From positions 10,250 through 74,249 of the forward strand of contig DASVDH010000078.1 in the NCBI GenBank assembly GCA_036381195.1: a stretch of DNA of 64,000 nucleotides. The letters run 5' to 3'. A program made the position numbers and the translations under genes. The stretch is from Longimicrobiales bacterium. Lineage in GTDB: Bacteria > Gemmatimonadota > Gemmatimonadetes > Longimicrobiales > RSA9. Positions 19,079-61,777 of the stretch are shown here, piece by piece (the stretch's first letter is position 1; every line of letters begins with the position of its first letter). A model generated the notes under the pieces. The model had not been told where the DNA came from, searched no databases, and saw only the letters and a list, made by a program, of their open reading frames with translations.

Positions 19079-19184
19079 GGATTCCTCAGGTGGAGGGCTG
19101 CGGTTCGACCCCGGTACGGCAGACTCGGCTCCGCCACCGGGGGATCGCGACATTGTACTGGATGCTTGCTCGCAGCCCGCTACC

Positions 19185-19615: not shown

Positions 19616-19631
19616 GGGCACGTGTCTTGCT
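19616..19631 (+). promoter_or_regulatory. candidate sigma-54 (-24/-12) promoter for the deacetylase-FemAB-DegT-GT operon
   Basis: Plus strand reads GGGCACG-TGTC-TTGCT against consensus TGGCACG-N4-TTGCW, with only the first base deviating. Predicted TSS is near 19643, followed by AGGAG at 19654-19658. Confidence 0.65.
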
Positions 19632-38616: not shown

Positions 38617-40565
38617 GCCAGCCATCGATACCGCCATGCCTGGAACATCAAGACGGCCCAGAGCCCAATCGCGAGCTGGTCATGGCCATCCTGCAGCGCG
38701 GCCCAGGCGCGATGGACGCTGACGCCGCGGAGGATGCCGTCCCGATCCAGGGCGTCACGGTCGAGGAGGTCCTCGGCCCACGGTCGCAGCGCGCCGCGCA
38801 GCCACGTGGCGATCGGCACCGAGAACCCCATCTTGGGGCGATCCACCAGCTCCTGCGGCACGCGACGGTAGAGCGCCTGGCGCAAGAGCCACTTCCCCTG
38901 GCGCCCGCGGATCTTGAGGTTGCGGGGCAAACACCAGGAGAACTCGATGATGCGGTGATCGAGCAGAGGGACGCGGACCTCCAGGCTGACCGCCATGCTC
39001 GCACGATCCACCTTGGCCAGCAGGTCGTCGGGGAGGTACATCGCCTGGTCCGTCAGCATCATCCGTTCGAGCAGCGGAAACGCCGCGCCCGCCTCGAACG
39101 CCCGGTCCACGGGACTCGGCTGCGACTCGCCGCAACGCAGGATCCGGCCGGGCTCCTGCCACGCGCTGAGCAGTGAGCGGTACATCTCGAGCGGCGAGTC
39201 CCAGCTCATCAAGGCCCCGAACTTGACGATCTTCTCGCCGGGCAGCCGGTGGCGCGCTGCCACCGGGAGTACGGGACTGACCGAGCGGTAGAGCCGGTCC
39301 CAGGAGCGGGACGAGACGCGGCCGATGCCGGCCGCGACGACGCGCCGGAGCGGCCTGGGCATCCGTTGCAGCCCCCCGATCGCCTGCTCTCCCTGGATGT
39401 AGCGGTGGTAGCCCGCGAAGACCTCGTCACCGCCATCGCCTGAAAGCGCCACGGTCACGCTCCGTCGCGCGAGCTGGGACACCAGGAAGGTCGGGATCTG
39501 CGAGGGATCCGCGTGCGGCTCGTCGAAGATGTCGGGCAGCCGCGGGACCACGGCGCGCGCGTCTTCGTCCGTCAGCACGAGCTGCGTATGATCGGTGCCC
39601 ACGTACGCGGCGACCCGCGCCGCAGCCGGCGCCTCGTCGTAATCCGGGTGATCGAATCCGATGGAGAACGTCCTGACCGGGCGCGACGAGAGACTCTGCG
39701 CGACGGCGGTCACCGTCGAGGAATCGATCCCGCCCGAGAGGAGCGTGCCCAGGGGGACATCCGACAGCAGGCGCAGGCGCACCGAATCCGTGAGGAGCGC
39801 ATCGAACTCCTCGAGCGCCTCCATCTCCGTGCCCCTGAACGGAGCGGCACGTCCGCGCGCAGCCGCATCGACCAGCGACCAGTACGGCCGTGACGCGGGG
39901 AGCGGCTCGTCCACCGAGCGGACCGTCAAGATGTGGCCGGGGGGCAGCTTCGAGGCGTCGGCGTAGATCGTCCTGGGTGCGGGGACGTACAGGTACCGTA
40001 GGTACGCCGCCAGCGCAGCGGTGTCGAGCTCACGATCGAATTCAGGGCCCTCGACCAGGGACTTGAGCTCGGATCCGAACGTCAGGATGCCGGGTTGCCA
40101 CGAGATGTAGAGGGGCTTGATCCCGAGGCGGTCCCGCAGCAGGAAGATCTCACGGGTGGCGGCATCCCAGACGGCCATCGCGAACATCCCGATGAAGCGG
40201 TGGACTGCGGGCTCGACGCCCCAACGCTCGAACGCCGCCAGGATCGTCTCCGTATCCGAGTGGCCGCGAAAACGGAAGCCGGCTCCCTCGAGCTCCGTGC
40301 GGAGGGCCCGGTGGTTGTACACCTCGCCGTTGAAAACCAGAGTGTAGCGCCCGGAAGGCGAGCGCATCGGCTGGCGGCCGTTCGCCGAGAGATCGAGGAT
40401 GGCGAGTCGCCGGAAACCCAGCGCGATGCCGGCCTCGGCATCCGCCCAGACCCCTTCGTCATCGGGACCGCGGTGCGCGATGGGCGCGATCATCCGCCGC
40501 ACCGCCGCCTCCAGCCCAGCGCGCTCGTATCCTCGAGTCGAGACTATTCCCGCAAAGCCACACAT
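38613..40565 (-). CDS. asnB: asparagine synthase (glutamine-hydrolysing) family amidotransferase
   Basis: The ATG at 40565 gives MCGFAGIV.... HRGPDDEG, FNGEVYN and the PP-loop LSGGIDSS are present. Confidence 0.9.
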   Translation of the reverse strand: MCGFAGIVSTRGYERAGLEAAVRRMIAPIAHRGPDDEGVWADAEAGIALGFRRLAILDLSANGRQPMRSPSGRYTLVFNGEVYNHRALRTELEGAGFRFRGHSDTETILAAFERWGVEPAVHRFIGMFAMAVWDAATREIFLLRDRLGIKPLYISWQPGILTFGSELKSLVEGPEFDRELDTAALAAYLRYLYVPAPRTIYADASKLPPGHILTVRSVDEPLPASRPYWSLVDAAARGRAAPFRGTEMEALEEFDALLTDSVRLRLLSDVPLGTLLSGGIDSSTVTAVAQSLSSRPVRTFSIGFDHPDYDEAPAAARVAAYVGTDHTQLVLTDEDARAVVPRLPDIFDEPHADPSQIPTFLVSQLARRSVTVALSGDGGDEVFAGYHRYIQGEQAIGGLQRMPRPLRRVVAAGIGRVSSRSWDRLYRSVSPVLPVAARHRLPGEKIVKFGALMSWDSPLEMYRSLLSAWQEPGRILRCGESQPSPVDRAFEAGAAFPLLERMMLTDQAMYLPDDLLAKVDRASMAVSLEVRVPLLDHRIIEFSWCLPRNLKIRGRQGKWLLRQALYRRVPQELVDRPKMGFSVPIATWLRGALRPWAEDLLDRDALDRDGILRGVSVHRAWAALQDGHDQLAIGLWAVLMFQAWRYRWLA

Positions 40566-40706
40566 CTCGGGCCTCGTGACAGCGCACGCGTTCGACGCGG
40601 TGGCACCACCACCGAGGGGTCCCGAAGGGGCGCGCAGCGGATGACCGCGCTCCACTCCGGCAACGCCACGTGCGCCGTTGGCCGGCCGCCTCCCGCGGCG
40701 TGTTGG

Positions 40707-46015: not shown

Positions 46016-47716
46016 TCATCGGCGTGGGGAACGGGCAGCGATGCTGCGGATCGTGAACGTCCCCACGGAGCGCGACGACGGTTCGACCGGAAAGGCGGCG
46101 AGGGCGGCGATGACCCGATCCGGCCCGTATCCGGCCGCGGCGAGGGCCTTCCATGGGTTCTGTTTCGGGGGAACGTCGTAGATGGAGACGATGTCGACCC
46201 GGCCGCCGCCCTCGAGCGCCTGGCGGATGCGGGCGGCGAGGGTGTCCAGTCCCTCCGGCGCAGGATAGCGATCGGCGAGGGAGGTGACCGAAAGCCTGCG
46301 CGTGCGGTCCGGACCGTCGACGAAGAAGAGGAGCTGGTCCACCTCGTCGTAGCCCGGGTAGATCACGAGGTCCGCGCCGGCCAGGGCGTGCTCGAGGAGC
46401 GCGACGCGTTCGGCCCGTGGGTACAGGACGCGGTTTTTCACCATGTCGAGCGCGTTCCAGCCCAGCGTCAGGAGCACGAGGGCGAGGATCGCCGCAAGCC
46501 GACGCCCCCGCAGACGGATTCCCGTCAGCAGGGCCCCCATCGCGATGCCGAGCTGGAAGTAGAACTGGTCGTCCGAGTTGTTCCAGTAGACCGCGAACGT
46601 GAACACCGCGATGCCGATGCCGGCCGCGAGGAGGGGAGCGATCCCCCTCGTTCCGGGCGCGTCCGGATCCGGGGCCACCAGGGAATCGCGGAGCGCGAGC
46701 ACGAGCACGAGAACCCCCGCCAGGCAAAAGGCCAGCGGAGCCAATGACGCGGGCGTCAGCGTCCTGCCATCCCGGATCGCCTCGACCACGGGGGCGAGAT
46801 CGACGATGCTGCTGAGCGAGCCGTACACTGCCCGGGCTGTTGAAACGGTGATCGCGCGGACCGAGAGGTCCGCGCCGTAACCCGCCGCCAGCAGGCCGGG
46901 GGATGCATCGCCACCATAGCTGGTGATCCACGAAACCGGCCCCACCTCTGACGGGCCGACCACGGCCCACGCCGCAATGAGCCCTGCGAGCGCCGTGAGG
47001 ACCGCCCCCAGGCCCAGGCCGGCCGCGATCTGGACGACTCGCCGCACCTCGCGCCGCAGGGCGTACCGCATCCCGATGACGCCGGCAATTGCGAGCGGAA
47101 TCAGGATGTTCGAGATGTAGGCCAGTGCAGCCGCTCCTCCGACCAGGCCAGCAAACACCGCCAGCATCCAGCTCGGGCGCGCCACGTAGGCGACCACCAG
47201 CGCTGCCACACCGGCCAGGAACGGCATCTGGAGCATGTGGATCTCATCCGAGATCCAGAGGCGCGAGAACGCCGACCCCAGCGCAACCCACGCGGTGGCG
47301 AGGTTTGCTTCCAGCCGACCGGGGGCCAGGGGGCCGGCGACACGCCAACGAAAGATGCCGAGCGCAGCCGCACCGCACACGATGCTCAGCCATTTCAGCC
47401 GGTCGGGAGCCGGGCGCGCCGAGCCCAGCCCCGCCGTCACCGCCTGCCACCAGCTCCCCACGGGCTCCAGCAGCAGGTGATTCGGGTTCCACGTCCAGGT
47501 GCCGCGGGTGAACGTCGCGCTGTGCGCGAGACCATCCCCGGAAACGAAGCCGATCGGCACGACGCACAGCACCAGAGCCGGTACGACGAGCCAGAGCAGC
47601 GCGTCTATACGATCGGCTCCGCTTCGTCCGAGCGCTCGGCCGGCAGGCCCAATCGCATGCACGGGCGTGCCCGGCGCGGGGGCAATCGCCTGAGGCTTGG
47701 AATCAGGGGGCACCAT
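46016..47716 (-). CDS. uncharacterised polytopic membrane protein with C-terminal soluble domain (GT-C-like layout)
   Basis: 566 aa with many hydrophobic helices through ~aa 430. The soluble tail runs ...LVIYPGYDEVDQLLFFVDGPD...FTIRSIAARS. No family recognised. Confidence 0.6.
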   Translation of the reverse strand: MVPPDSKPQAIAPAPGTPVHAIGPAGRALGRSGADRIDALLWLVVPALVLCVVPIGFVSGDGLAHSATFTRGTWTWNPNHLLLEPVGSWWQAVTAGLGSARPAPDRLKWLSIVCGAAALGIFRWRVAGPLAPGRLEANLATAWVALGSAFSRLWISDEIHMLQMPFLAGVAALVVAYVARPSWMLAVFAGLVGGAAALAYISNILIPLAIAGVIGMRYALRREVRRVVQIAAGLGLGAVLTALAGLIAAWAVVGPSEVGPVSWITSYGGDASPGLLAAGYGADLSVRAITVSTARAVYGSLSSIVDLAPVVEAIRDGRTLTPASLAPLAFCLAGVLVLVLALRDSLVAPDPDAPGTRGIAPLLAAGIGIAVFTFAVYWNNSDDQFYFQLGIAMGALLTGIRLRGRRLAAILALVLLTLGWNALDMVKNRVLYPRAERVALLEHALAGADLVIYPGYDEVDQLLFFVDGPDRTRRLSVTSLADRYPAPEGLDTLAARIRQALEGGGRVDIVSIYDVPPKQNPWKALAAAGYGPDRVIAALAAFPVEPSSRSVGTFTIRSIAARSPRR

Positions 47717-47758: not shown

Positions 47759-47774
47759 TGCAAGAACGGGGCCA
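47759..47774 (-). promoter_or_regulatory. candidate sigma-54 (-24/-12) promoter
   Basis: Minus strand reads TGGCCC-CGTTC-TTGCA, one mismatch to consensus. It lies in the 111-bp gap. Predicted TSS is near 47747, about 30 nt before ATG 47716. Confidence 0.55.
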
Positions 47775-47827: not shown

Positions 47828-49384
47828 TTACGGCGGAAGCGGCTCCGATTCCCGGCCAGGAACAACCCGGTACAGCGTGACCTCGCCTTTGTGCGCCACG
47901 GGCTCGGCGTGTTCCATGATCAGCGCGCTCGCCCGTGGATCATCTCCCGCTTCTACGATGAACTCGTACTGGGCGAGAATGCGGTCCCAAGCGAGCGGGC
48001 TGTATTGCCTCGTGCCCCAGTCGTCGCCCGGATGGTAGAGGCGATCCGGCACCCAGAAATGGAGGAGCTGCTGCCCGTTCCCGTTACCGGAGAAGAGGTT
48101 GGGAGCACGACCCTGCCGCTTGATCGTATGCCAGTGAGCGAAGTGGCGGTAAGCCGGGATTCGGCCGTGCCGGCGCTGATCCGAGACCAGCGGTAGCACG
48201 TTCGACCGGGCGGGGAGCAAGTCCAGTACGGCAGCCATGTCCGCCAGCTCCCGATCGATGACGACGGCGCGATGCCCTATGACGGCAGCGTGCACCAGGC
48301 ATCCGAGAAACGGCAGCAACAAGAAGACGCGCCTCGGCGGCGACTCGCGAGCAGGACAGCAGAAGATCAGGAGCAGGCCGGGAAGGAGGAAGCGGACATC
48401 GACATCCTCCGCGCCCATGAACGTCGCCGGAAACACCAGATAGGCGATAAAAAGGCCGGCCGTAGCGAGCGCGAGGGAATCCCGCTTCCGCTGGAAGCGG
48501 TGCCAGACGCCAAACAGGAGGACTGACGCGAAATAGGTGCCTGCCATGAGCGCGGCCTGCGCGGGCGAAAAGGAGTAGAACGGCGCGAACACGTGGGTCG
48601 CCTTGCTCAAGGCGCCGCGCATCTCGGTCGTGTACGCGGGCAAGGGAGCGCCTGGCGCGTAAGCTTTGGCAGCCAACCACGCGCTGCCGACCGCCAGCGT
48701 GACCGCCACTGTCGCCCAGGTCCGTTGGTCGCGGATCGCTCGCCGGACGTGGAGCTCCCCCGAGCCGAGGTGGAGCGCTGTATCCGTCCACGCCACGATC
48801 AGGGCGACGGCGGCGGCGGAGAGGTGCACGAAGTAGAGCGCCAGGGCGCCTACCGCCAGCAAGAGGCCGGCTGCGGCCGATGGGTGCGTGCGGTATCGCC
48901 ACCATCCCGCGATCCACAGCATGGCCAGACCAACGCCCACGGCATAGCTGACGAATCCGATGAGGAAGAACCAGTTGAACGCGAGCAGCGCTCCGATCAG
49001 GGCCCACCCGCGTGCGGCCGGCGCCTTGGCCCGGAGGAGCAAGTACATGGCGACAGGGGTGAGATTCACGGCCACGAGAGACAGCACTCGTTGCGCAGCG
49101 AGCGGCGGCATCAGCCCGACCAGGATCGCGCCCACTGCATCCATGCCCAGATAGGCGGTGGGAACGAATCGGAACTCGGCAGGAAACGGTGGCGGTTCTC
49201 CTCCCCAGATCTGCGCCAGCAGGACGTATCGGGCCAGGTGGTTGGTCGCATCCGTGTACGGGAAGTACTGCACCGTCAGCACGACGGCGGTGTTGGCCGC
49301 GATGGCGATTCCCAGGAGCAGCGCCTCCCGGGAAAGCATGCGGTGTCGGCCCCCATCCGCTCTCGTCGAGTTCCAGGATGGCAT
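47828..49384 (-). CDS. uncharacterised polytopic membrane protein with C-terminal soluble domain (GT-C-like layout)
   Basis: ATG 49384 is preceded by AGGAG, 7 nt upstream. 518 aa with hydrophobic helices through ~aa 370. The soluble tail ends ...KGEVTLYRVVPGRE. No family recognised. Confidence 0.65.
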   Translation of the reverse strand: MPSWNSTRADGGRHRMLSREALLLGIAIAANTAVVLTVQYFPYTDATNHLARYVLLAQIWGGEPPPFPAEFRFVPTAYLGMDAVGAILVGLMPPLAAQRVLSLVAVNLTPVAMYLLLRAKAPAARGWALIGALLAFNWFFLIGFVSYAVGVGLAMLWIAGWWRYRTHPSAAAGLLLAVGALALYFVHLSAAAVALIVAWTDTALHLGSGELHVRRAIRDQRTWATVAVTLAVGSAWLAAKAYAPGAPLPAYTTEMRGALSKATHVFAPFYSFSPAQAALMAGTYFASVLLFGVWHRFQRKRDSLALATAGLFIAYLVFPATFMGAEDVDVRFLLPGLLLIFCCPARESPPRRVFLLLPFLGCLVHAAVIGHRAVVIDRELADMAAVLDLLPARSNVLPLVSDQRRHGRIPAYRHFAHWHTIKRQGRAPNLFSGNGNGQQLLHFWVPDRLYHPGDDWGTRQYSPLAWDRILAQYEFIVEAGDDPRASALIMEHAEPVAHKGEVTLYRVVPGRESEPLPP

Positions 49385-49683
49385 GGCGTCGCTCCTGATG
49401 TCCCCGTGCTAGCGGCCGGGACTCCTCGCGCATCCTCGAGGCGGGAGGGGAGGGGGATACGCTCAACAGCCCAAGAGGGCGAGGCCGCCACTCGAGCCCA
49501 GCGGACGGAGTGAACCGCCCTCAACCGGAGGAGCGCCGTCGCCGGATCCGCGCCGCCCAAGATATGGCCAGCGATCGGGGCTGTCGAGGCAATCCTGAGC
49601 AGTCCGTGATCCGCTGGATGCCTTCTCGCAGGCCGGGAGACGCCACGCGCTCGGCGCGGGCGAAGTGGGATGCACACAGAAAC

Positions 49684-49715
49684 GGGGCCAGCCGCACATG
49701 TCGGCGGCTGGCCCC
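49684..49715 (-). terminator. intrinsic-terminator-like hairpin downstream of the Big_2 lipoprotein gene
   Basis: 12-bp perfect stem GGGGCCAGCCGC/GCGGCTGGCCCC with an 8-nt loop, 40 nt after the stop at 49756. On the minus strand it's followed by GTTTCTGTGTG. Confidence 0.6.
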
Positions 49716-49755
49716 ACGAAACCCGCGATTGAAAGCAGGGGTCGGAGGGCCCGGG

Positions 49756-52700
49756 TCAGTCCGGGGTCCAGATCACGATGTCCCAGATATACTCGACCTG
49801 GTCCATCCGCGGCGAATTGAAGACGGACGGCAGTGCAAATCCGCGGAAGCCCTGCACGTCCATCGCCGCGGTCGTGTCCATGATCTTGGTGCCGTTGACC
49901 CACGCCACGATGCGCCCGTCGCTTCGGCCCGGAGCCGTCGCGGCCTGGTAATACACGGTGATCGTCAGGTCCTCCGCGATGTGGTCCTCCGGGAACCAGT
50001 TTGCGTACCTCGCCACCCCCTCGGTATCCAGGCGCACGCTGAACCGCGACGGCGCCGGACCGCCCCAGATCACGTCGGTTCTGCCGTCGTTCCCGGCATC
50101 ACCACCCGTCGACGGGTCACCCCGGCCCATGATCGTCATCTTGCGCCCCGCGTTCCCGCCCGTACCGCAGTTCGGGTTCGTGATCGCGAATTCGTTCACC
50201 GCGCCGAAGGAGGTGTTCGTATCGGCGGGGTGGCGGCCCATTCGCATCTTCCATTGCATGTAGATGCGCCTGGGGGAGCTGCCCTGCTGCTCGCCTGCGA
50301 AGACGTGCGCGATCTTGTGCGTTTGCTCGGAACAGGTCCCGCCCCAGCCCCGCCATTCGATGCGATAGGCGTTCGTGCCCCGGCCATTGAAATTGCGACT
50401 GAACTTGATGCCGGACGTGTACTCGAGGCCAGCGATCGCTTGCTGGAGCGACGTAGCGCTCTGGAGCGATGCCCGCGTATCGAACAGGATGCGGTCACCC
50501 TGTCCTGGCTGCGGATCCCCGCCCTGAGAGGGCCGCGTCACGGTAATGGTCGCACTCCCGCTCTTCCCCTCGCTCCTGGCGGTGATCGTGGCAGTCCCTT
50601 CCCCCACGCCCCGGACGAGCCCGCCGGACGTCACCGTGGCCACGCCGGTGTTGGAGCTGGACCACTCCACGGCGCGGCCGTTGAGCGTGTTCCCGCTCTC
50701 GTCCTTCAGCGTCGCCGTGAGCTGGAGCGTGCCGTCGACCGGGATCGTCCCGGAGGACGGCGAGACCGTGACCGTGGCCACGGGCGCCGGCCCGCTTCCG
50801 CCGCCGCCGGAGCCGCCGCCGCAGCCGATCCGCTGTGTGCTGACGACCAGGTTATCGAAGTAGCGCTCCTGTTGCCGCGGCGCTCCGTTGTTCCAGTAGT
50901 TTTCCAGGAACAGGGCGTTGATCCCGTAGGCGCTGTAATTGCCCACCCAGTTCAGGTTCGTCGCGCGTGCCTCGAGCTGCCCGTCGATCCACAGCTCGAA
51001 CACCCCGTTGCTCTGCCCGGGGTCGTTCACCCGCACGTGGGATTCGATGCAGTGCCATTCTCCGACATGCGCGGCGTCGAAGATCGGCGTGCTGCTCGTC
51101 TGCGCGCCCAGCCAGCGCAGGTTGCCGAAGTCGTTGTACCCGGTCGTGCGGACGTTGCCCTGCTCGTCCGTGCCCGATGCAGGATCGAGCACCAGGTAGT
51201 TGTTCCCGCTGCCGCCGCTCCAGACGTGGGCGATGAGCGCCTCCGACCAGTCCTCGCGCGCGAAGATGATCGCACGGGCCAGCTTGTCCCCGCCGCCTCC
51301 GCTCCAGTCGGGCGCGTTGCGGAGGTAGACCCGCCAGTAGATGTCCCGATAGTTGGCGGTGCCGGCATCGACCGGCCGCATGTAGGACGACGGTGTCTTT
51401 CCGAATGCGAGCTTCAGGTTCCCCGCGTTGACCTGGCCGGCGCTGAACCGGGCCCGCATCCCCCCCGAACCATCGATCCCCACGCCCGCCGCGCGCACGA
51501 AGGCGCCGCCGCGCTCGTCGTACTCGAAGTACTGGCTGAGGCGGTCCTGATCGAAGTCGTCGCACCAGATCCAGCCGTCGCCCGGTTGGGAGCACTCGTT
51601 GACGAGGCTCGCGCTGCCGCCGCCTCCACCGCCGCCACCACCACCGCTCACCGTGATGTGCGCTTCCGCGCTCTGGTCCCCGCTCTCGGCCCTGATGGTC
51701 GCCTCGCCGGGGGCGACCCCCCGCACCAGGCCGGTTTCGTCAACCGCGGCGATGGCTTCGTCGGAAGACCTCCAGGCGATCTCCGCCCCCGGGATGGGGT
51801 TGCCGTTGGCATCGGCCGCGGTGGCGGTCAGTTGGAGGGTCTCGCCGACGCCGACCGTGCCCGTATCGCGGTCGAGCGACAACGAGGCCACGACCTGCCG
51901 CACCTCGATGCCGGCGGTGTCCGCCTCGCCACAGCAGACGGCCGTGGCGACGATCAGTGCGGTCCCGACGGCTTTGGCCGTGACTCTGCCCATGGTGTCC
52001 ACCGTTGCAATGTGTGAATCAAGGGAGGTCCACACGATCCGGACGCCGGACACGACCGAGCCGTCTGCCGTGTAGGCGGTGGCTCCAAGTTGCAATGTAG
52101 CGCCGATGGCGTCCAGGGTGCCCGTGTGGGGTGTGATCTCGACTCGCGCGACCGCCGCCTCCTGCCGGACCGCGACGGTCACGGTGTCCGCAATGTCTCC
52201 GGCCGACGCGACGATCTTCGCGTCCCCGCTCTGATGGGCCGTGGCGAGGCCGCTCTCGTCGATCGAGACGACGGCCGGCGCCAGGGAAGCCCAGCTCACC
52301 GCGACGTCGGGGATCTCGTGCCCGTTGCGGTCCCGGGCGATCGCCACGAAACGGAGCGTGTCGCCGAGCTCCACGACCACCTCTTCCGGGGGCTCGCCGT
52401 CCGGAGACGTGCCCGCCGGGAGCGCCGACAGGGAGGCGACCTTCTGGCGGACGGTGATGGTCGCGGTGTCCGCGAGAGAGCTCACGGATGCCTCGATCCG
52501 GGCTGTTCCGACCGCTTCCGCCCGGACCAGACCGTCCGGGCTGACGGTCGCGATCTCCGGGTCGAGACTGCGCCACGAGATCTTCGCTCGTGGGCTCAAG
52601 AGTCCGTCCGCCGTCTCGAGTTCCGCCGAGAGACGGATCGTATCCCCCAACGCCTCCAGCTCGGCCGTGCTCGGTTCGAGCACGATCCGGAAGGCATCCG

Positions 52701-52791
52701 GATTCGACTCGATCAGATCTCCGAACTCGCAGGCGGAAGCCACGACCAGACCAACCGCCATCAGAAAGATCCCGGTCCCGCGCCTGAGCAT
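49756..52791 (-). CDS. large secreted lipoprotein: 5 Big_2 (bacterial Ig-like group 2) domains + two beta-jelly-roll (ConA/polysaccharide-lyase-like) domains
   Basis: ATG 52791 (GAGG 8 nt upstream) gives MLRRGTGIFLMAVGLVVASAC, a signal peptide plus lipobox. Four tandem ~85-aa repeats have the Big_2 pattern (...LxLxAxxxDxxGxxxxxxxVxWxSSDxxIATVxxxGxVxAxxxGxAxI...). Then come a poly-Gly linker, a ~230-aa jelly-roll-like domain, a GS linker, a fifth Big_2 and a second ~250-aa beta-rich domain. Confidence 0.8.
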   Translation of the reverse strand: MLRRGTGIFLMAVGLVVASACEFGDLIESNPDAFRIVLEPSTAELEALGDTIRLSAELETADGLLSPRAKISWRSLDPEIATVSPDGLVRAEAVGTARIEASVSSLADTATITVRQKVASLSALPAGTSPDGEPPEEVVVELGDTLRFVAIARDRNGHEIPDVAVSWASLAPAVVSIDESGLATAHQSGDAKIVASAGDIADTVTVAVRQEAAVARVEITPHTGTLDAIGATLQLGATAYTADGSVVSGVRIVWTSLDSHIATVDTMGRVTAKAVGTALIVATAVCCGEADTAGIEVRQVVASLSLDRDTGTVGVGETLQLTATAADANGNPIPGAEIAWRSSDEAIAAVDETGLVRGVAPGEATIRAESGDQSAEAHITVSGGGGGGGGGGSASLVNECSQPGDGWIWCDDFDQDRLSQYFEYDERGGAFVRAAGVGIDGSGGMRARFSAGQVNAGNLKLAFGKTPSSYMRPVDAGTANYRDIYWRVYLRNAPDWSGGGGDKLARAIIFAREDWSEALIAHVWSGGSGNNYLVLDPASGTDEQGNVRTTGYNDFGNLRWLGAQTSSTPIFDAAHVGEWHCIESHVRVNDPGQSNGVFELWIDGQLEARATNLNWVGNYSAYGINALFLENYWNNGAPRQQERYFDNLVVSTQRIGCGGGSGGGGSGPAPVATVTVSPSSGTIPVDGTLQLTATLKDESGNTLNGRAVEWSSSNTGVATVTSGGLVRGVGEGTATITARSEGKSGSATITVTRPSQGGDPQPGQGDRILFDTRASLQSATSLQQAIAGLEYTSGIKFSRNFNGRGTNAYRIEWRGWGGTCSEQTHKIAHVFAGEQQGSSPRRIYMQWKMRMGRHPADTNTSFGAVNEFAITNPNCGTGGNAGRKMTIMGRGDPSTGGDAGNDGRTDVIWGGPAPSRFSVRLDTEGVARYANWFPEDHIAEDLTITVYYQAATAPGRSDGRIVAWVNGTKIMDTTAAMDVQGFRGFALPSVFNSPRMDQVEYIWDIVIWTPD

Positions 52792-53001
52792 GCAGCTGCC
52801 TCGTTCGTCGCGATTGAACCAAAGACCACCGAGCGTGAATCCCCCGGAGGGCAAATCTCCGGATCACCGGCGGCCAAGCGGGCGTGGCGGGCGGGGAGCC
52901 CGCTGTAGCCCTCGACTCTGCGCTCCCGTCTTTCCGCGGGTTTGCTCTGAGCAACGACGATGGTGGGCTTTGGTCTTGTTCGCGGCTCGGTCGCCCGGAG
53001 C

Positions 53002-53017
53002 GGCAACAGCGGTGCCC
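53002..53017 (-). promoter_or_regulatory. candidate sigma-54 (-24/-12) promoter for the Big_2 lipoprotein gene
   Basis: Minus strand reads GGGCAC-CGCTG-TTGCC; GGCAC and TTGC are perfect. Predicted TSS is near 52990, about 200 nt upstream of ATG 52791. Confidence 0.6.
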
Positions 53018-53043
53018 GGCGCGGCACGGACCCGTGCCGCGCC
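53018..53043. repeat. 26-bp near-perfect palindrome abutting the -24 element
   Basis: GGCGCGGCACGG-ac-CCGTGCCGCGCC, with 12-bp arms. It's followed by a second 12-bp palindrome, CCAAGCGCTTGG (53046-53057), and then ATTTTC. Confidence 0.6.
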
Positions 53044-53582
53044 GCCCAAGCGCTTGGATTTTCGGGAGATCACGGCTCGCCGCGGCTCGACGGAGTGGCG
53101 GAACGACCCGGCCGCCGCCGGGACTTCATTGCCGGCCGACGTGCATTCTTTTCAGCGGCGGGCCGCGGGCGTGCCTTGCTGGTCGCGGCTAGCGAGAGTC
53201 GGCAGAGGACTCATCGCCACGATTGGAATCGAAATCGTCGTGTAATGATAAGCGATCGCCGCCCAATAGCCGGCCGGAGGCAGTTCGGGAGTGACTGTAT
53301 CGCTATTCTGCCGGCTTGCGGGTCGTCGTGGCCCACGTCCACCGAGAAGCCCGGCAAACCGGATCCCGGGCGCGGCCGCGACGCCAGACCGGGAAGACAG
53401 CGACGGGTCCGAGCAGCAGGCCGTGGCCGACATCGGGGTGGCGGAGCCCGTCGCGGCCCCGCGTCAGCGTGGGCTGCCGGAAGCGGAGCGGGAAGGTCGC
53501 GGCGGCTGTGCGATGGCCGGCCGCGTGGTACCGGCGCCGTCGCCGGGGTGCGCCCGGCGGCGGAGCGCCTCGAGGGGTCACA

Positions 53583-54356
53583 TCACCACGCGCCCAACCT
53601 GAACGCGATGACGGGGAGGGTGCGGAGCATGATCTTGAGGTCCTCGAGGGCGGACCTGCGCTGGATGTATTCGAGGTCGTACTGGAGCTTGCGGCGCACG
53701 TCGTCGATGGAGCTGTCGTAGTGATGGTTGATCTGGGCCCAACCCGTGATGCCCGGGAGCACGTGCTGCCGGTCGGAGTACCGCTCGATCTGGTCGCGGA
53801 GCCGCATGAAGATGGCGGGCTGCTCGGGACGCGGCCCCACGATGTTCATGTCGCCCTTGAGGACGTTGATGAGCTGGGGCAGCTCATCCAGGCGGTAGGC
53901 GCGCAGGATGCGCCCGATCCTCGTGACGCGGGGGTCGTCGGGCGCGGCCCAGACGGCGCCGGCACGATCCGCGTCGGGGACCATCGTGCGGAACTTGTAG
54001 AGCTTGAAGAGCCGCCCGCCGTAGTCCACGACGCGGCGGTGTCCGCCGGGCGAGCGTTTGCCGCGCCGGCGGTCGATGCCGACCCGGATCTGGGTGAAGA
54101 AGACGGGTCCTGGGGAGGTGAGCTTGATCGCGATGGCGATGACGAGCATCAGCGGCGCCGCCAGGAGGAGGCCGATGGCCGCGACCGAGAGGTTGAGCAG
54201 CCGGAGGGACCAGGAGTCCCGTGCCGGGATGTGTCGAACGACCGCGGTGGTGTCCAGGCCGTGCAGGTCCGGGGCGGTGCCATGCGCGTAGCGGCCATCG
54301 ACGGGGCGCGGCCGCACGCGGAGTTGTCGTACGCTGGCGATGCTCTTGGATGTCAT
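53583..54356 (-). CDS. polyprenyl-phosphate sugar-phosphate transferase (bacterial sugar transferase, WbaP/EpsB C-terminal type)
   Basis: ATG 54356. One TM helix (LLNLSVAAIGLLLAAPLMLVIAIAI) is followed by SPGPVFFTQIRVG, KFRTM, DELPQLINVLKGDMNIVGPRP and GITGWAQI. Confidence 0.9.
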   Translation of the reverse strand: MTSKSIASVRQLRVRPRPVDGRYAHGTAPDLHGLDTTAVVRHIPARDSWSLRLLNLSVAAIGLLLAAPLMLVIAIAIKLTSPGPVFFTQIRVGIDRRRGKRSPGGHRRVVDYGGRLFKLYKFRTMVPDADRAGAVWAAPDDPRVTRIGRILRAYRLDELPQLINVLKGDMNIVGPRPEQPAIFMRLRDQIERYSDRQHVLPGITGWAQINHHYDSSIDDVRRKLQYDLEYIQRRSALEDLKIMLRTLPVIAFRLGAW

Positions 54357-57997: not shown

Positions 57998-60418
57998 ATG
58001 TCGAGCAATCTTCCGACGACGCCAGGGCCGGTGGAGCTGCAGATGGCCGCGAGCGAGCCGGGCCAACCGGCCCGGGCGGTGCCTGAGCTGGGCGCCGGTG
58101 CCTCGTTCAACTGGCGCCGCTACGTCTCGATGGTGCTGAGGCGGAAGTGGCTGGTGCTGGGCATCACGGCGTTCGGCCTGGCGGCGGGCGTCCTGGCGAC
58201 GCGGTTCATGAGCCCGGTGTACGTGGCAAACGCGACGCTCTGGATCGAGGCGGACGACCGGCGCGGGTCGAGCCCCGGACCCATCCGCCCGGATGGATTG
58301 CTGGAGGCGTGGGGGTGGCGCGAGCTGCTGAGGTCGTACGTGGTGCTGGACCACGTGGTGCGCGAGGCGCTGCTGTACGTGACGCCGCAGTCGCCGGCTG
58401 ATTCGGCGTTGTTCAAGGGGTTCGGGCTCAAGGAGTCGTTCCGGGTCGGAGAATACTCGCTGAACGTGGCGGAGGACGGGCGGACGTTCGTGCTCGCGGG
58501 TGAGGGCGGCGTCGAGATCCAGCGGGGCGTGGTCGGCGATTCGGTGGGTGCGGGCGTCGGTTTCCAGTGGGTCCCGCCGGCAGAGGAGATGCGGCCGGGC
58601 CGGGTGGTGAAGTTCAGGGTGGGGTCACCGCGGGATGCGGCGGATGCGCTGGCTGCGGCCCTGGACGTACGCATGTCCGAGCGAGCATCGAACTTTATGC
58701 GGATCTCGCTGGAGGGCACGGATCCGGTGCGGATCGCGCGGACGGTGAACGCGGTGGCGGAGCGGTCGGTGGAGGTGGCGGCGGAGCTGAAGCGGGCGAA
58801 GCTGGACGAGTACACGGAGATCCTGCGGGCGCAGTTGGAGACGGCCGAGCAGAATCTGGCGGCGGCGGAGACGGCCCTGGAGAGTTTCCGGGTCCAGACG
58901 ATCACGTTGCCGTCGGAGCGGACGGTGATGCAGGTGGCGCCGGGGCTGCAGCAGACGCGGGATCCGGTGTTCGCGCGCTACTTCGACATGAAGGTGGAGC
59001 TGGACGAGGTGGCGCGTGCGCGGGAAGGGATCGAGCGGGTGCTGGCGGAGGCGCGAGGGGGAGAGCTCTCAGTGGCAGGCCTGGAGGCGATCCCGGCGGT
59101 GCAGCAATCGTCGGAGCTGAGGGCGGCATTGAGCGAGCTGACGGATGCGCGTGCGGAGTTGCGGGCGCTGCTCCACCAGTACACGCCGGAGCATCCTGCG
59201 ACGCGGCGGCTGGAGGCGCAGATCGACACGCTGGAGCGGCGGACGATTCCGCGGCTTGCGACGGTGCTGATCGGGGAGCTGGCGACGCGGGAGGCGGAGC
59301 TCGCGGCGCAGGTGCGAGGCGCCTCCGCAGAGCTGCAGGCGATTCCTCCGCGGATGATCGAGGAGGCGCGGCTGATGCGCCAGGTCGCGATCGCGGCGGA
59401 CCTGTACCAGTCGCTGCAAGCGTCATATGAGGAAGCGCGTCTCGGGGCGGAGAGCAGCATCCCGGACCTGCGGATCCTGGACATGGCGGCGGTTCCGCGA
59501 CGGCCGGTGAGGGATGAGCGGCCGAGGGCGATTCTCCTCGCGTTCCTGGGGAGTCTGGGGCTCGCGGTGGTGGGCGTGGTGTTGCTGGAGAAGGTGGATC
59601 CACGTGTGCGGTACCCGGAGCAGGTGACACGGGAGCTCGGGCTGCCGATCCTGGGCGCGGTGCCCCGGCTGGAGACGCCGGGCGGGTCGGTCCAAAGCGG
59701 GTCGGAGAGCGCGGCGCATGTGATCGAGGCGTTCCGGGGGATCCGGCTGAACCTCGCCTATGCGGCAGCGGCGGACGGCGGGCCGCTGCAGGTGACGGTG
59801 ACGAGTCCGGGTGTCGGGGATGGCAAGTCGTTCGTCAGCTCGAACCTCGCGCTGGCCTTCGCGGAGCTGGGGAAGCGGACGCTGCTCGTGGATGCGGACA
59901 TCCGGCGGGGTGTGCTCCACCGGCTGTTCGGGCGGACCCGCAAGCCCGGCTTGACCGATTACCTGGCGGGGGATGTGACCCGGGAGGCGCTGGTCCAGAG
60001 GACGCGGTACCCGATGCTGGACCTGATCGGATCGGGCACGCGGATGCAACGGGGGCCGGAGCTGCTTTCGACTGCGGCGCTGGGGGAGCTGCTCGACGCG
60101 CTGCGCTCGGAGTACCAGGTCATCATCGTGGACACAGCGCCGTTGAGCGCCGGTGTGGACCCGTTCGTGTGCGGGACGGTGACAGGCCGCGTGCTGATGG
60201 TGCTGCGGACAGGGATGACGGACCGTGAGCTGGCGGGTGCGAAGCTGGGCGTGCTGGACCGGCTGCCCGTCGAGGTGGTAGGGGCGGTGCTGAACGACGT
60301 GACCCGGAGTGGCACGTACGGCTACTACTATCGGCTGTACGGCTACTCGGCGAATTACGAGGTGGTGGGGTCGGAGGAGGAGACGGAGACGCTCGTGGCC
60401 GGCGAGCGGCGGAGCTAG
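57998..60418 (+). CDS. polysaccharide co-polymerase / BY-kinase (Wzc/GumC-EpsG type, chain-length determinant fused to tyrosine autokinase)
   Basis: N-terminal Wzz-type region with TM helix (WLVLGITAFGLAAGVLATRF), a long coiled-coil and a second TM. Walker A SPGVGDGKS, A' LLVDADIRRG and B VIIVDTAPL. Tyr-rich tail GTYGYYYRLYGYSANY. Confidence 0.9.
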   Translation: MSSNLPTTPGPVELQMAASEPGQPARAVPELGAGASFNWRRYVSMVLRRKWLVLGITAFGLAAGVLATRFMSPVYVANATLWIEADDRRGSSPGPIRPDGLLEAWGWRELLRSYVVLDHVVREALLYVTPQSPADSALFKGFGLKESFRVGEYSLNVAEDGRTFVLAGEGGVEIQRGVVGDSVGAGVGFQWVPPAEEMRPGRVVKFRVGSPRDAADALAAALDVRMSERASNFMRISLEGTDPVRIARTVNAVAERSVEVAAELKRAKLDEYTEILRAQLETAEQNLAAAETALESFRVQTITLPSERTVMQVAPGLQQTRDPVFARYFDMKVELDEVARAREGIERVLAEARGGELSVAGLEAIPAVQQSSELRAALSELTDARAELRALLHQYTPEHPATRRLEAQIDTLERRTIPRLATVLIGELATREAELAAQVRGASAELQAIPPRMIEEARLMRQVAIAADLYQSLQASYEEARLGAESSIPDLRILDMAAVPRRPVRDERPRAILLAFLGSLGLAVVGVVLLEKVDPRVRYPEQVTRELGLPILGAVPRLETPGGSVQSGSESAAHVIEAFRGIRLNLAYAAAADGGPLQVTVTSPGVGDGKSFVSSNLALAFAELGKRTLLVDADIRRGVLHRLFGRTRKPGLTDYLAGDVTREALVQRTRYPMLDLIGSGTRMQRGPELLSTAALGELLDALRSEYQVIIVDTAPLSAGVDPFVCGTVTGRVLMVLRTGMTDRELAGAKLGVLDRLPVEVVGAVLNDVTRSGTYGYYYRLYGYSANYEVVGSEEETETLVAGERRS

Positions 60419-61338
60419 ACGGGGCGGGTGGCGCCCTCGGTCTGGAAGTCATCGGCGACCTGGACCGGGCTCTCGCTGCTCCCGGCCTTGTGGAGCGCGA
60501 GGGTCGCGCGGACCAGGAGGTCCGCCGGGGCGATCGCGGTTTCGCGGAAGCTCGAGACGCCGGCGCAGCCGACGCGGAACTGGCGCGGCGTGTCGCCGGC
60601 GGGGTCGGGCGCGCGTTCCCGGATCACGCGGAGGATGCGTTCGGCCGCGATCCGGGAGCCCGCGGGTCCGGTGCCGGTGGCGAGGATGACGAACTGGGAT
60701 GCGCCGAGCCGGCCGACGACATCGGACTTGCGGACCGTGTCGCGGAACGTTTCGGCGAATCGCCTTAGGAGATCGGGGTCGTCGGGGCCGGGCGCGAGCG
60801 CGAAGATGATGCACGCCATGGGGCGGTCGTGGCGCGCGGCGTCAGCGCCGATCTCCCTGGCGCGCTGGAGAATGCCGCGCAGGTTGTAGAGGCCGGTGGC
60901 CTCGTCGAGAAGGCCGTGATCGCGCGCGTGATCGCTGTCGAGCTTGGCGCGCGCGAACGCGTTGAGCTTGAGCACGAGCTCTTCGGCATCGAGCGGGAAC
61001 CCGATGATGTCCCAGGCGCCGGCCTTGAGGGCCTCGAGTCGCTGTTGTCTGGTCGCGGGGCCCGCGGTGGTGAGCAGGACCGGCGTGCTCCTCAGGAAGC
61101 CGGGGTCCCTGCAGATGAGCCGGCAGGTCTCGATGCCGTCGGGCTCGGGCAGGTCCACATCGAGCAGCAGGATGTCCGGGCGGGAGTTGCGGAACGCTTC
61201 GATGGCGTGCTTGCCGCTGGAGGCCCGCAGGACGGCGAATCCGTGGGGGCCGAGGATGCTCTCAATGGACCAGCCGATCCATTCCTGATCGCTGGCAACG
61301 AGGACGAGGGGTGCCGCCGCGCCGTTCGCTGGCTTCAT
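60415..61338 (-). CDS. response-regulator receiver fused to a degenerate GGDEF domain
   Basis: ATG 61338. REC (PDILLLDVDLPEPDG, VLLTTAG). GGDEF-like domain (DEATGLYNLRG..., RKSDVVGRLGASQFVILA, ...LLVRATLALHKAG). The active site reads GASQF instead of GG(D/E)EF. RKSD occupies the RxxD I-site position. The stop shares the tetranucleotide CTAG with the Wzc stop. Confidence 0.8.
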   Translation of the reverse strand: MKPANGAAAPLVLVASDQEWIGWSIESILGPHGFAVLRASSGKHAIEAFRNSRPDILLLDVDLPEPDGIETCRLICRDPGFLRSTPVLLTTAGPATRQQRLEALKAGAWDIIGFPLDAEELVLKLNAFARAKLDSDHARDHGLLDEATGLYNLRGILQRAREIGADAARHDRPMACIIFALAPGPDDPDLLRRFAETFRDTVRKSDVVGRLGASQFVILATGTGPAGSRIAAERILRVIRERAPDPAGDTPRQFRVGCAGVSSFRETAIAPADLLVRATLALHKAGSSESPVQVADDFQTEGATRPV

Positions 61339-61777
61339 GTGCTCGCTGTTCCGTGTTGTGACGCACGGGAAGCGGAGAGTCAGATCGAGGAGCGGCTTGC
61401 CGCGAAGGGCAGCCACTCGCGGGACGGATTCCGGCCTCTCGCTTTCGGGCCCGTGATGTTGCAGGAATCGTGCGACGAGAGGGACGAGGGCGCCGCGCCG
61501 ATGCCTGTGGCCCTTGCGCATCCGCGGGCCGCGCCGGCCGGGAGGCCGGTTGCGGCGCGGAGGCGACACTTTGCTCCCGGGCTGCTACACGCGGGCCGCC
61601 CGGCGGAGAGCGAAGAGGGGTCGTCGGAGGCGGAAGCGGCCCGGAGAGAACGGCGTGCAGCCGTGCTGCCGCCGGCCGGCGCCGAGGCGGCATCGATCTT
61701 GAAAACGCGGCGGCCCGGATTGATCATCGCGCTGCCGAAGGCGCCATCTTCGGCGTGTCCTATTCCAGAGTGGGAGC

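What the first reader, a model, noticed from the sequence alone, without database searches (positions are those of the whole stretch)
49756..52791. 1011-aa lipoprotein with Big_2 x4, poly-Gly, jelly-roll, GS-linker, Big_2 and a second beta-domain: candidate sigma-54-controlled EPS lyase or depolymerase with a novel architecture
The protein has a lipobox signal peptide and five Ig-like Big_2 repeats.

It also has two non-repeat beta-rich domains:
- Domain A covers roughly aa 400-640. It reads ...DGWIWCDDFDQDRLSQYFEYD...WHCIESHVRVNDPGQSNGVFELWIDGQLEARATNLNWVGNY...YFDNLVVST. This resembles the ConA-like or polysaccharide-lyase jelly-roll pattern.
- Domain B covers roughly aa 750-1011 and ends ...IVAWVNGTKIMDTTAAMDVQGF...VEYIWDIVIWTPD. 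It looks like a second, different jelly-roll.

The linkers are G10 and GGGSGGGGSG. They are encoded by runs of GGN triplets (around 51614-51648 and 50790-50825) that could vary in length by slippage.

The gene has its own sigma-54 promoter, a leader of about 200 nt and its own terminator.

EPS loci commonly include one lyase or hydrolase for chain-length control or release. I don't recognise this two-catalytic-domain, Ig-rich lipoprotein format.
Basis: partly seen in the sequence, partly recalled or inferred. Interest (0 to 1): 0.6.

Follow-up and report, generated by a model that had tools for sequence, protein, structure and literature searches.

The report
Lyase-like lipoprotein behind c-di-GMP-type riboswitch
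A large surface-tethered lipoprotein in a sugar-polymer (EPS) gene cluster carries two domains shaped like polysaccharide-cutting lyases, and its leader holds a diverged cyclic-di-GMP-type riboswitch; it is a plausible but unproven signal-controlled EPS-trimming enzyme, and its layout is rare rather than unique.

Summary
The described sequence features are real. There is a 1011-aa ORF (49756..52791, minus strand) with a lipobox signal peptide, five Big_2 repeats, G10 and GGGSGGGGSG hinges, two non-repeat beta domains and a terminator hairpin.

- **Domain A** folds with high confidence (pLDDT 96) as a beta-jelly roll. Its best solved matches are PL20, PL36 and PL14 uronate lyases. It falls just under Pfam's PL14 cut-off and belongs to a large unnamed family (named members are Gemmatimonadota MAGs).
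- **Domain B** is a rare, unannotated family. Its C-terminal third is homologous to domain A.
- **Architecture.** The A-then-B layout recurs in 7 of 153 domain-B representatives. Two of these sit in similar EPS loci and one in a phage structural module.
- **Sigma-54 promoter.** The claimed promoter is no better than chance.
- **Leader.** The "200-nt leader" contains a c-di-GMP-I-like aptamer (31.4 bits, cut-off 35) with A at the ligand-contacting G20 position. Eight strong c-di-GMP-I riboswitches sit directly upstream of lipoprotein genes in related contigs. At least four of those genes encode domain-B homologs, and one a pectate-lyase lipoprotein.

Best reading: a cyclic-dinucleotide-regulated, tethered EPS lyase or depolymerase. 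Catalysis is untested, and a non-catalytic EPS-binding role remains a serious rival.

The parts
53002..53017 (-). Sigma-54-like -24/-12 motif GGGCACCGCTGTTGCC (weak, unverified)
   Evidence: It has 2 mismatches to the consensus. There are 21 such sites in the window against 17.0 expected. It is not conserved upstream of the homologs' riboswitches.
52866..52956 (-). Diverged GEMM-I / c-di-GMP-I-type aptamer in the 5' leader, with A at the G20 position
   Evidence: Rfam RF01051 scores 31.4 bits (gathering 35) over the full model 1-87, with E 0.0021 for 4.4 kb. A lineage-specific model R1 hits only this site in 117 kb (29.4 bits, E about 2e-6). In my reading of alignment A5, 19 of its 22 pairs are standard; family-wide, 90.9% of cells are paired.
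52799..52802 (-). Shine-Dalgarno-like GAGG, 7 nt before the ATG
   Evidence: Read directly from the sequence.
49756..52791 (-). CDS of the 1011-aa lipoprotein (stop codon included)
52729..52791 (-). Signal peptide with lipobox (VASA|C, Cys21)
   Evidence: Translation; the pattern was read directly.
51646..52698 (-). Four Big_2 domains (aa 32-115, 133-209, 212-298, 299-382)
   Evidence: Pfam Big_2, 5 stretches, E 3.8e-51.
51616..51645 (-). G10 hinge, encoded by GGT GGT GGT GGC GGC GGT GGA GGC GGC GGC
50821..51615 (-). Domain A: PL14/PL20/PL36-like beta-jelly roll with four conserved Cys
   Evidence: AlphaFold pLDDT 96.2. Foldseek PDB top hits are 2zzj, 6kzk, 5gmt and 3a0n. PF21294 scores 26.3 bits on the domain alone against a cut-off of 27. 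More than 1394 homologs were found.
50791..50820 (-). GGGSGGGGSG hinge
50536..50787 (-). Fifth Big_2 domain (aa 669-752)
49759..50529 (-). Domain B: rare unannotated domain, remote relative of domain A
   Evidence: Only 4 word-indexed homologs. 190 cluster representatives in an exhaustive profile search. hhalign against domain A gives 93.5-94.2% probability, E about 1e-7, over the last 80 residues. There is no Pfam hit for the window copy; PF14099 hits weakly in 6 of 46 relatives. The structure model failed.
49682..49717 (-). Intrinsic-terminator-like hairpin after the stop codon

Best explanation
**What it is.** The gene encodes a lipid-anchored envelope protein of a probable Gemmatimonadota bacterium (inferred from the named homologs and the Gemmatimonadaceae domain-B loci; the window itself is not identified). 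Four Big_2 domains form a stalk. A Gly hinge leads to jelly-roll domain A, which is PL14/PL20/PL36-like. A Gly/Ser hinge and a fifth Big_2 domain lead to jelly-roll domain B, a very divergent relative of A.

**What it most likely does.** It binds the exopolysaccharide made by the surrounding Wzx/Wzy locus and cuts it by beta-elimination, trimming or releasing chains at the cell surface. It appears to be expressed as its own unit. Its leader carries a GEMM-I-type aptamer, so output probably follows a cyclic dinucleotide (c-di-GMP, or a related ligand given A at position 20).

**Shown:** domain layout, the fold class of domain A, A/B homology, recurrence of the A-then-B module in EPS loci and in a phage, and strong c-di-GMP-I riboswitches before related genes.

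**Inferred:** catalysis, the substrate, the cellular face on which the protein sits, and whether the window's aptamer still works.
For: **Fold and family**
- The domain A model has pLDDT 96.
- Its six best PDB chains are uronate lyases or close to them: PL20 2zzj E 3.4e-11; PL36 6kzk and 6kcv; PL14 5gmt and 3a0n.
- 35 of 38 family members hit PF21294 at E <= 0.001.
- Domain B is homologous to domain A. Relatives of domain B give weak PF14099 hits.

**Context**
- The window is one large EPS locus. It holds glycosyltransferases, flippases, a Wzy-like protein, a Wzc-like kinase, an export protein, deacetylases and AsnB-like amidotransferases.
- A-then-B proteins P0147 and P0191 lie in comparable EPS loci.
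- P0254 lies among phage head and tail genes, where polysaccharide-binding or -degrading proteins are common.
- In L006, a Big_2 lipoprotein with a true pectate-lyase domain (PDB 9buj, E 1.5e-30) occupies the same kind of unit next to a domain-B gene and a Wzc-like gene.
- Other domain-B proteins carry right-handed beta-helix and RGI-lyase modules.

**Regulation**
- The leader aptamer is detected.
- Eight c-di-GMP-I riboswitches of 60-85 bits end within roughly 20-45 nt of the likely start codons of lipoprotein genes in L006-L009. At least four of those genes encode domain-B homologs.
Against: - No catalytic residue could be checked, because no structural alignment was available.
- The Pfam match covers only the C-terminal strands (profile positions 139-195 of 215) and is under the cut-off (24.6 or 26.3 bits against 27).
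- PF14099 scores 18.4 bits against a cut-off of 29.9.
- Profile searches of the PDB by sequence find no lyase.
- The next-best fold matches are non-enzymes or proteins with no detectable lyase activity: TtX122, Cip1, the toxin HCN domain and calreticulin (PMC10916295, PMC3764139).
- The domain B model failed.
- No uronate-synthesis gene was seen among the window ORFs that were scanned.
- Two domain-A-only homologs lie outside EPS loci and have no riboswitch.
- The window aptamer is below Rfam's gathering score. It has changes in conserved nucleotides and a broken tetraloop-closing pair.
- The A-then-B gene in L010 has no aptamer.
Confidence: 0.5

Rival explanations
1. The protein is a non-catalytic matrix protein. 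The two jelly rolls act as lectins that hold or organise the EPS (or bind another surface) at the end of a Big_2 stalk. The protein would then be an adhesin or anchor rather than a depolymerase.
For: - The jelly-roll fold is shared with lectin-like and binding domains that rank high in the same search: toxin HCN domains, calreticulin and a phage CBM.
- TtX122 and Cip1 resemble PL20 yet showed no lyase activity (PMC10916295, PMC3764139).
- All lyase HMM hits are sub-threshold and lie outside the presumed catalytic region.
- Cyclic-di-GMP riboswitches are known to control surface adhesins in other bacteria (my own knowledge, not checked here).
Against: - Most of the listed domain A homologs are free-standing proteins of 280-330 aa, 61-70% identical to the window domain. 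That is unusual for a mere binding module.
- Lyases, not lectins, are the top fold matches.
- The same lipoprotein/Big_2/riboswitch format carries a real pectate lyase in L006.
- A phage copy fits either reading.
Confidence: 0.28
2. The protein is an enzyme of another chemistry on the same fold, such as a GH16-like glycoside hydrolase or transglycosylase, or an esterase-type modifier, rather than a lyase.
For: - A beta-1,3-glucanase (7eo3) appears among the fold matches.
- No uronate-synthesis gene was seen in the locus ORFs scanned.
Against: - The hydrolase matches rank well below the lyases.
- I saw no ExDxxE-type GH16 motif in the conserved columns (read directly).
- The three AsnB-like amidotransferases hint at carboxylate-bearing sugars. 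This rests on my own knowledge of WbpS-type enzymes, not on a test here.
Confidence: 0.1
3. The protein is a foraging enzyme for foreign polyuronides in soil (alginate, glucuronan, pectin) and merely happens to lie in the EPS locus.
For: - Domain-A-only homologs lie among unrelated genes.
- Characterised PL14, PL20 and PL36 enzymes act on alginate or glucuronan (PMC11890756).
Against: - Three of three A-then-B genes with usable chromosomal context lie in EPS loci (window).
- Domain-B genes in L006 and L008 also adjoin EPS genes.
- Control by a biofilm second messenger fits self-EPS remodelling better.
Confidence: 0.08

Closest known systems
CAZy PL14 (Chlorella virus vAL-1, Aplysia AkAly30) with the related PL36 (Aly36B), and Pfam PF21294
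   Same: - They share the beta-jelly-roll fold (Foldseek E 4e-10 to 1e-8, TM 0.55-0.66).
- 35 of 38 family members hit PF21294 at E <= 0.001.
- Both occur in viruses as well as cells (L011).
   Different: - The window protein is below the Pfam cut-off.
- Only the C-terminal strands align.
- Sequence identity is 10-13%.
- The catalytic residues were not located.
- Domain A has four conserved Cys and a long conserved loop (DPASGTD...YNDF) that I cannot map to PL14.
[quoted passage not shown]
   Same: It is the best structural match of domain A (E 3.4e-11, TM 0.61/0.67). Weak PF14099 hits occur in both domain A and domain-B relatives.
   Different: The score is 18.4 bits against a cut-off of 29.9. 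Identity is 12%. No activity data exist.
TtX122 (CAZy X122) and Cip1: PL20-like jelly rolls with no detected activity
   Same: They share the fold neighbourhood and occur in multi-domain carbohydrate-related proteins.
   Different: There is no detectable sequence relation, and the partner domains differ. They serve as a caution that this fold does not prove lyase activity (PMC10916295, PMC3764139).
c-di-GMP-I (GEMM-I) riboswitch RF01051 and the cGAMP-sensing GEMM-Ib variants
   Same: - The match covers the full model, in a 5' leader, on the coding strand.
- The P1a/P1b helices, the GAAA loop and the GCAAAC and CGCA motifs are kept.
- The nucleotides I align with A47 and C92 are kept.

   Different: - The score is 31.4 bits, under the 35-bit cut-off.
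- A replaces G20, the change that marks cGAMP-binding or bispecific variants (PMC6140456).
- The closing pair of the tetraloop is broken.
- 75 nt separate the aptamer from the start codon, instead of roughly 20-45 nt in the eight relatives.
Dedicated glycanases of EPS operons (AlgL, PslG, PelA, BcsZ types; my own knowledge)
   Same: One polymer-cleaving enzyme is encoded inside the biosynthesis locus.
   Different: - The folds differ.
- This protein is a 1011-aa Big_2-tethered lipoprotein with two jelly rolls.
- It is a separate transcription unit with a riboswitch-like leader.

Membership tests
Pfam PF21294 / CAZy PL14 | HMM score at or above the gathering cut-off (27 bits) | tested here: not met
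   The whole protein scores 24.6 bits and domain A alone 26.3 bits. However, 35 of 38 relatives match at E <= 0.001.
Pfam PF21294 / CAZy PL14 | Beta-jelly-roll fold superposable on vAL-1 or AkAly30 | tested here: met
   Foldseek: 5gmt E 4e-10, TM 0.57-0.65; 3a0n E 4.8e-9, TM 0.61/0.66.
Pfam PF21294 / CAZy PL14 | Catalytic Lys/Ser/Arg/Tyr/Tyr set in the cleft (vAL-1 K197, S219, R221, Y233, Y235; recalled from memory) | not testable with these tools
   No residue-level structural alignment or coordinates were available. The HMM match does not cover that region.
Pfam PF21294 / CAZy PL14 | Beta-elimination activity on alginate or glucuronan | not testable with these tools
   This needs enzyme assays.
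Pfam PF14099 / CAZy PL20 (and PL13) | HMM score at or above the cut-off (29.9 bits) | tested here: not met
   Domain A scores 18.4 bits. The window's domain B gets no hit, and 6 of 46 relatives hit only weakly.
Pfam PF14099 / CAZy PL20 (and PL13) | Fold like 2zzj | tested here: met
   It is the top PDB match of domain A, E 3.4e-11, TM 0.61/0.67. Domain B is untested because its model failed.
Big_2 (PF02368) | HMM above cut-off; repeated units | tested here: met
   171.4 bits against 22.8, in five stretches.
Bacterial lipoprotein | Basic n-region, hydrophobic core, and a lipobox with Cys within the first 35 residues | tested here: met
   MLRRGTGIFLMAVGLVVASA|C, read. No dedicated predictor was run.
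c-di-GMP-I riboswitch (RF01051) | Covariance-model score at or above gathering (35 bits) | tested here: not met
   31.4 bits, E 0.0021 for 4.4 kb. There was no hit at gathering over the whole window.
c-di-GMP-I riboswitch (RF01051) | Conserved helices, and a position in the 5' leader of a gene on the same strand | tested here: met
   - Full model 1-87.
- By my reading of alignment A5, 19 of 22 pairs are standard in the window copy.
- The aptamer lies 75 nt before the ATG.
c-di-GMP-I riboswitch (RF01051) | Homologous genes elsewhere carry bona fide members | tested here: met
   Eight matches of 60-85 bits lie upstream of lipoprotein genes, including domain-B homologs, in L006-L009. The model built from them finds only this site in the window. 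The A-then-B gene in L010 has none.
c-di-GMP-I riboswitch (RF01051) | G at position 20, which reads one guanine of c-di-GMP (PMC6140456) | tested here: not met
   The window has A at that column, and all eight relatives have G. Mapping model position 11 to G20 is my own inference.
Sigma-54-dependent promoter | TGGCAC-N5-TTGCW match better than chance, at a sensible distance | tested here: inconclusive
   - The GG and GC cores are present, but the match has 2 mismatches.
- 21 such sites occur against 17 expected.
- The motif is not conserved in relatives.
- A sigma-54 activator gene is nearby.

The most novel reading that the evidence does not exclude
The leader aptamer may be a working GEMM-I variant whose A at the G20 position makes it respond to 3',3'-cGAMP, or to both cGAMP and c-di-GMP. 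Domains A and B may each found a new polysaccharide-lyase family. If so, a dinucleotide-switched two-lyase lipoprotein remodels a Gemmatimonadota EPS. That would place cGAMP-type riboswitch control in a phylum and on a target class where I know of no report.
Probability: 0.1. Interest if true: 0.7.

Novelty: new variant of a known kind. Interest (0 to 1): 0.45.

Why it matters
Gemmatimonadota are abundant soil bacteria whose surface polymers and signalling are barely studied.

- **Enzymology.** If domain A (more than 1394 relatives) and domain B are active lyases, they define uncatalogued enzyme families for complex bacterial EPS.
- **Regulation.** The repeated unit [quoted passage not shown] points to a direct RNA-level link between second-messenger level and matrix remodelling. 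The held literature search found no paper linking c-di-GMP riboswitches with polysaccharide lyases.
- **Testability.** The A20 variant gives a simple, testable question about ligand specificity.

Tried and rejected
- **Domain B structure.** The prediction was made from a 5-sequence alignment and failed (pLDDT 32).
- **PDB sequence and profile searches.** Searches with both domains found nothing relevant. The RsgI3 hit of domain B is only the generic "DG..W.NG" strand.
- **Other libraries.** NCBIfam gave no match for the protein. PHROGs hits are all due to the Ig repeats.
- **Scans for domain B.** Genome and metagenome scans returned only short or contig-end loci.
- **Missing DNA.** No DNA was available for the contigs carrying P0125/P0132 and P0191, so their leaders could not be scanned.
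- **Paralogs.** No other copy of either domain exists in the window.
- **Leader fold.** The MFE fold of the whole leader is no more stable than shuffles (z 0.73), so the expression platform stays unresolved.
- **Alternative start.** I rejected the longer TTG start at 52854. It would put 21 residues in front of the signal peptide and has GGAG only 2 nt upstream.
- **PEP-CTERM.** I rejected a PEP-CTERM sorting signal because the C-terminus is ...IVIWTPD.
- **Literature.** The vAL-1 paper (PMC2790987) is not held.
Full report
**1. The observation**

The minus-strand ORF 49756..52791 encodes 1011 aa. A public gene call on a Logan metagenome contig gives the identical product. The ATG at 52791 has GAGG 7 nt upstream. 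It yields MLRRGTGIFLMAVGLVVASA|C, a standard lipoprotein signal with Cys21. The longer TTG start at 52854 would bury that signal behind 21 extra residues.

Pfam finds Big_2 in five stretches (E 3.8e-51). I place them at aa 32-115, 133-209, 212-298, 299-382 and 669-752. G10 lies at aa 383-392 and GGGSGGGGSG at aa 658-667.

The Gly codons are mixed, with never more than three identical in a row. The homologs P0125 and P0132 have Pro/Ala-type linkers instead. Length variation by slippage is therefore only a conjecture.

A 14-pair hairpin followed by TTCTGTGTGC lies just after the stop codon (49717..49682).

**2. Domain A (aa 393-657)**

- A word-indexed search found 1394 relatives at E <= 0.001. 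The best 120 are 61-70% identical.
- Most are proteins of 280-430 aa, with or without one Big_2 domain. All are unnamed or "hypothetical". Those with a source name come almost all from Gemmatimonadota MAGs; one is labelled Dehalococcoidia.
- Conserved features include four Cys and the motifs WIWCDDFE.DRL..YFEY, YWR, GGGGDKL.R, HVWS, DPASGTD, YNDF, NGVFE.W and RYFDN..VST..IGC.
- AlphaFold gives pLDDT 96.2 and pTM 0.93, an all-beta sandwich.
- The best Foldseek matches in the PDB are PL20 glucuronan lyase 2zzj (E 3.4e-11, TM 0.61/0.67), PL36 Aly36B, and PL14 AkAly30 and vAL-1. Next come TtX122, Cip1, clostridial toxin HCN domains and calreticulin.
- PF21294 (PL14) scores 24.6 bits on the whole protein and 26.3 bits on the domain alone, against a cut-off of 27. 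It hits 35 of 38 family members at E <= 0.001.
- That match covers only profile positions 139-195 of 215, the C-terminal strands.
- Sequence and profile searches of the PDB find no lyase.

Domain A is therefore a peripheral relative of the PL14/PL20/PL36 jelly-roll lyases. Whether it has their active site could not be tested.

Both TtX122 and Cip1 resemble PL20, yet gave no lyase activity when assayed (PMC10916295, PMC3764139). Fold alone is not proof.

**3. Domain B (aa 755-1011)**

- Only four relatives appeared in the word-indexed search. An exhaustive profile search of 1.84 billion cluster representatives found 190 at E <= 0.001.
- The domain is C-terminal in 96 of 111 near-full-length copies.
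- The window copy has no Pfam hit. Six of 46 relatives hit PF14099 weakly, as do the domain-B copies of P0125, P0130 and P0132.
- My one structure job, run on a 5-sequence alignment, failed (pLDDT 32).
- Profile-profile comparison of a 93-copy domain-B alignment with domain A gives 93.5-94.2% probability (E about 1e-7) over the last 80 residues. A reversed-template control gives 0.4%.

Domain B is thus a second jelly roll of the same superfamily. Its conserved polar set is D17, R19, Q23, K130, R136, Y247 and D250.

Some relatives join domain B to right-handed beta-helix, DUF1565, RGI-lyase and fn3 modules.

**4. The architecture is rare, not unique**

Seven of 153 domain-B representatives also carry a true domain A, always in the order A then B.

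- P0125 and P0132 are 41-51% identical to the window protein over the Big_2/A/Big_2/B span. They are tandem neighbours on one contig.
- P0147 lies beside AsnB-like, Wzy_C, GT2, deacetylase and GT4 genes.
- P0191 lies among GT4, PMT_2 and Wzy_C genes.
- P0254 has no Big_2. It lies in a phage structural module with scaffold, major head (phrog_283, E 6.5e-58), minor tail and tail terminator genes.

A chromosomal EPS-locus home, together with a phage copy, fits a module that recognises or degrades a surface polysaccharide.

**5. Context in the window**

All 64 kb read as one Wzx/Wzy-type EPS locus. It contains:

- many GT2 and GT4 genes and two flippases;
- a Wzy-like gene and a Wzc-like kinase;
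- a Poly_export/SLBB protein and a Bac_transf initiating transferase;
- four Polysacc_deac_1 deacetylases, one above the NCBIfam cut-off for the XrtA-system deacetylase;
- three AsnB-like amidotransferases and a carbamoyltransferase;
- a histidine kinase with a sigma-54 activator whose best match is PEP_resp_reg (below cut-off).

No uronate-synthesis gene was seen among the ORFs I scanned.

Two domain-A-only homologs lie in unrelated neighbourhoods.

**6. Regulation**

*Sigma-54 motif.* The motif at 53017..53002 keeps the GG and GC cores but has two mismatches. Such matches are at chance frequency in the window (21 against 17.0). Nothing similar precedes the related riboswitch units.

*Leader aptamer.* Rfam's c-di-GMP-I model matches 52956..52866 over its full length at 31.4 bits (gathering 35; E 0.0021 in 4.4 kb).

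*Strong relatives.* I scanned the loci that hold homologs. Eight matches of 60-85 bits appeared, all on the coding strand. Each ends within roughly 20-45 nt of the likely start codon of a lipoprotein gene. The downstream genes are:

- the domain-B genes of L007, L008 and L009;
- the next lipoprotein gene in L008 and in L009, whose domain content is not established because the contigs end;
- three consecutive genes in L006, next to a Wzc-like gene:
  - Big_2 x3 with a metallophosphatase;
  - Big_2 x4 with a pectate lyase (PDB 9buj, E 1.5e-30);
  - a domain-B gene.

*Lineage-specific model.* A covariance model built from those eight finds exactly one site in 117 kb of window and loci: this leader (29.4 bits, E about 2e-6).

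*Structure support.* On the nine-sequence alignment, 90.9% of cells pair, against 25-39% for slid controls. Several pairs show compensatory changes.

*How the window copy differs.* All points below come.

- It has A where all eight relatives have the G that I map to G20.
- GACGCAAA is changed to AGCGCAGA.
- The tetraloop-closing pair is a G-G mismatch.
- 75 nt separate the aptamer from the ATG.

G20 reads one guanine of c-di-GMP. A at that position marks cGAMP-binding or bispecific GEMM-Ib RNAs, and Vc2 G20A binds both ligands (PMC6140456).

I judge it very likely that this leader descends from a GEMM-I aptamer. I judge it about even that it still functions. Its ligand is open.

The A-then-B gene of L010 has no aptamer, so the link is frequent but not universal.

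**7. Mechanism and rivals**

Most likely (0.5): a lipid-anchored, Big_2-spaced enzyme whose jelly rolls bind the locus's EPS and cleave it by beta-elimination, with expression tuned by a cyclic dinucleotide.

The main rival (0.28) is a non-catalytic EPS-binding or adhesive matrix protein.

Lesser rivals are another chemistry on the same fold (0.1) and a foraging lyase for foreign polyuronides (0.08).

The deciding data are enzyme assays, a residue-level superposition of domain A on the lyase structures, a good model of domain B, and ligand binding by the leader RNA.

**8. Novelty and score**

The parts are all of known kinds: Big_2, a PL-like jelly roll, a lipoprotein and a GEMM-I RNA. The layout recurs in metagenomes.

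What is new:

- an unannotated domain-B family;
- a large PL14-peripheral family with no characterised member that I could find;
- the repeated riboswitch-lipoprotein units in the Gemmatimonadaceae MAG L006 and in three related metagenome contigs;
- the A20 leader.

I rate the finding a new variant of a known kind, with interest 0.45.

Noticed in passing
L006 2985-3078, 4864-4962, 7725-7823 (Gemmatimonadaceae MAG DASTYE010000104.1): Three consecutive lipoprotein genes each have their own strong c-di-GMP-I riboswitch (60-74 bits), next to a Wzc-like gene. They encode Big_2 x3 with a metallophosphatase, Big_2 x4 with a pectate lyase (PDB 9buj, E 1.5e-30; weaker VexL hit), and a domain-B protein.
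   Followed up: partly
L008 2161-2251 and 3887-3977; L009 307-397 and 1888-1978; L007 127-217: Tandem units of a c-di-GMP-I riboswitch followed by a lipoprotein gene. The aptamer ends within roughly 20-45 nt of the likely start codon and is directly followed by the Shine-Dalgarno sequence, which suggests translational control. In L008 the unit follows DegT-like and GT4 genes.
   Followed up: partly
L011 6001-7767 (Logan SRR16915463 contig): An A-then-B protein without Big_2 (P0254) sits in a phage structural module: scaffold, major head (phrog_283), a minor-tail-like neighbour, tail terminator and tube-like protein. A tRNA lies at 976-1060.
   Followed up: partly
L010 1-3129 and 3580-6054: The truncated 1042-aa gene upstream of the A-then-B gene P0147 also ends in the domain-B C-terminal motif (...WDHLIWIPN). 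Domain-B genes are therefore tandem here, as on the P0125/P0132 contig.
   Followed up: no
window 60415-61569 (-): A response regulator with a degenerate GGDEF domain: LGASQF in place of GG(D/E)EF, but with an RKSD (RxxD, I-site-like) motif five residues before it. It may be a c-di-GMP receptor rather than a cyclase.
   Followed up: no
window 47759-47774 (-): A one-mismatch sigma-54-like motif (TGGCCCCGTTCTTGCA) lies 43-58 nt upstream of the start of the unknown membrane-protein gene 46016..47716. It is a better match than the one claimed for the finding.
   Followed up: no
window 13972-15885 (-): A DUF5060 / apiosidase-like / Collagen_bind_2 protein, which is a second candidate glycanase of the same EPS locus.
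   Followed up: no
window 1518-3500 (+), 5581-7512 (+), 38613-40655 (-), 17267-19621 (-): Three AsnB-like amidotransferases (one resembling the XrtA/PEP-CTERM system amidotransferase, below cut-off) and a carbamoyltransferase. They hint at an amidated or carbamoylated polymer.
   Followed up: no
window 46016-47716 (-) and 47828-49384 (-): Two large hydrophobic proteins directly downstream of the finding have no Pfam or NCBIfam match.
   Followed up: no
window 52791-53583: A long (about 790-nt) gap separates the finding's start codon from the end of the upstream Bac_transf gene. Apart from the aptamer, nothing was identified in it. A 253-aa ORF called there on the opposite strand in the Logan contig looks spurious.
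   Followed up: partly
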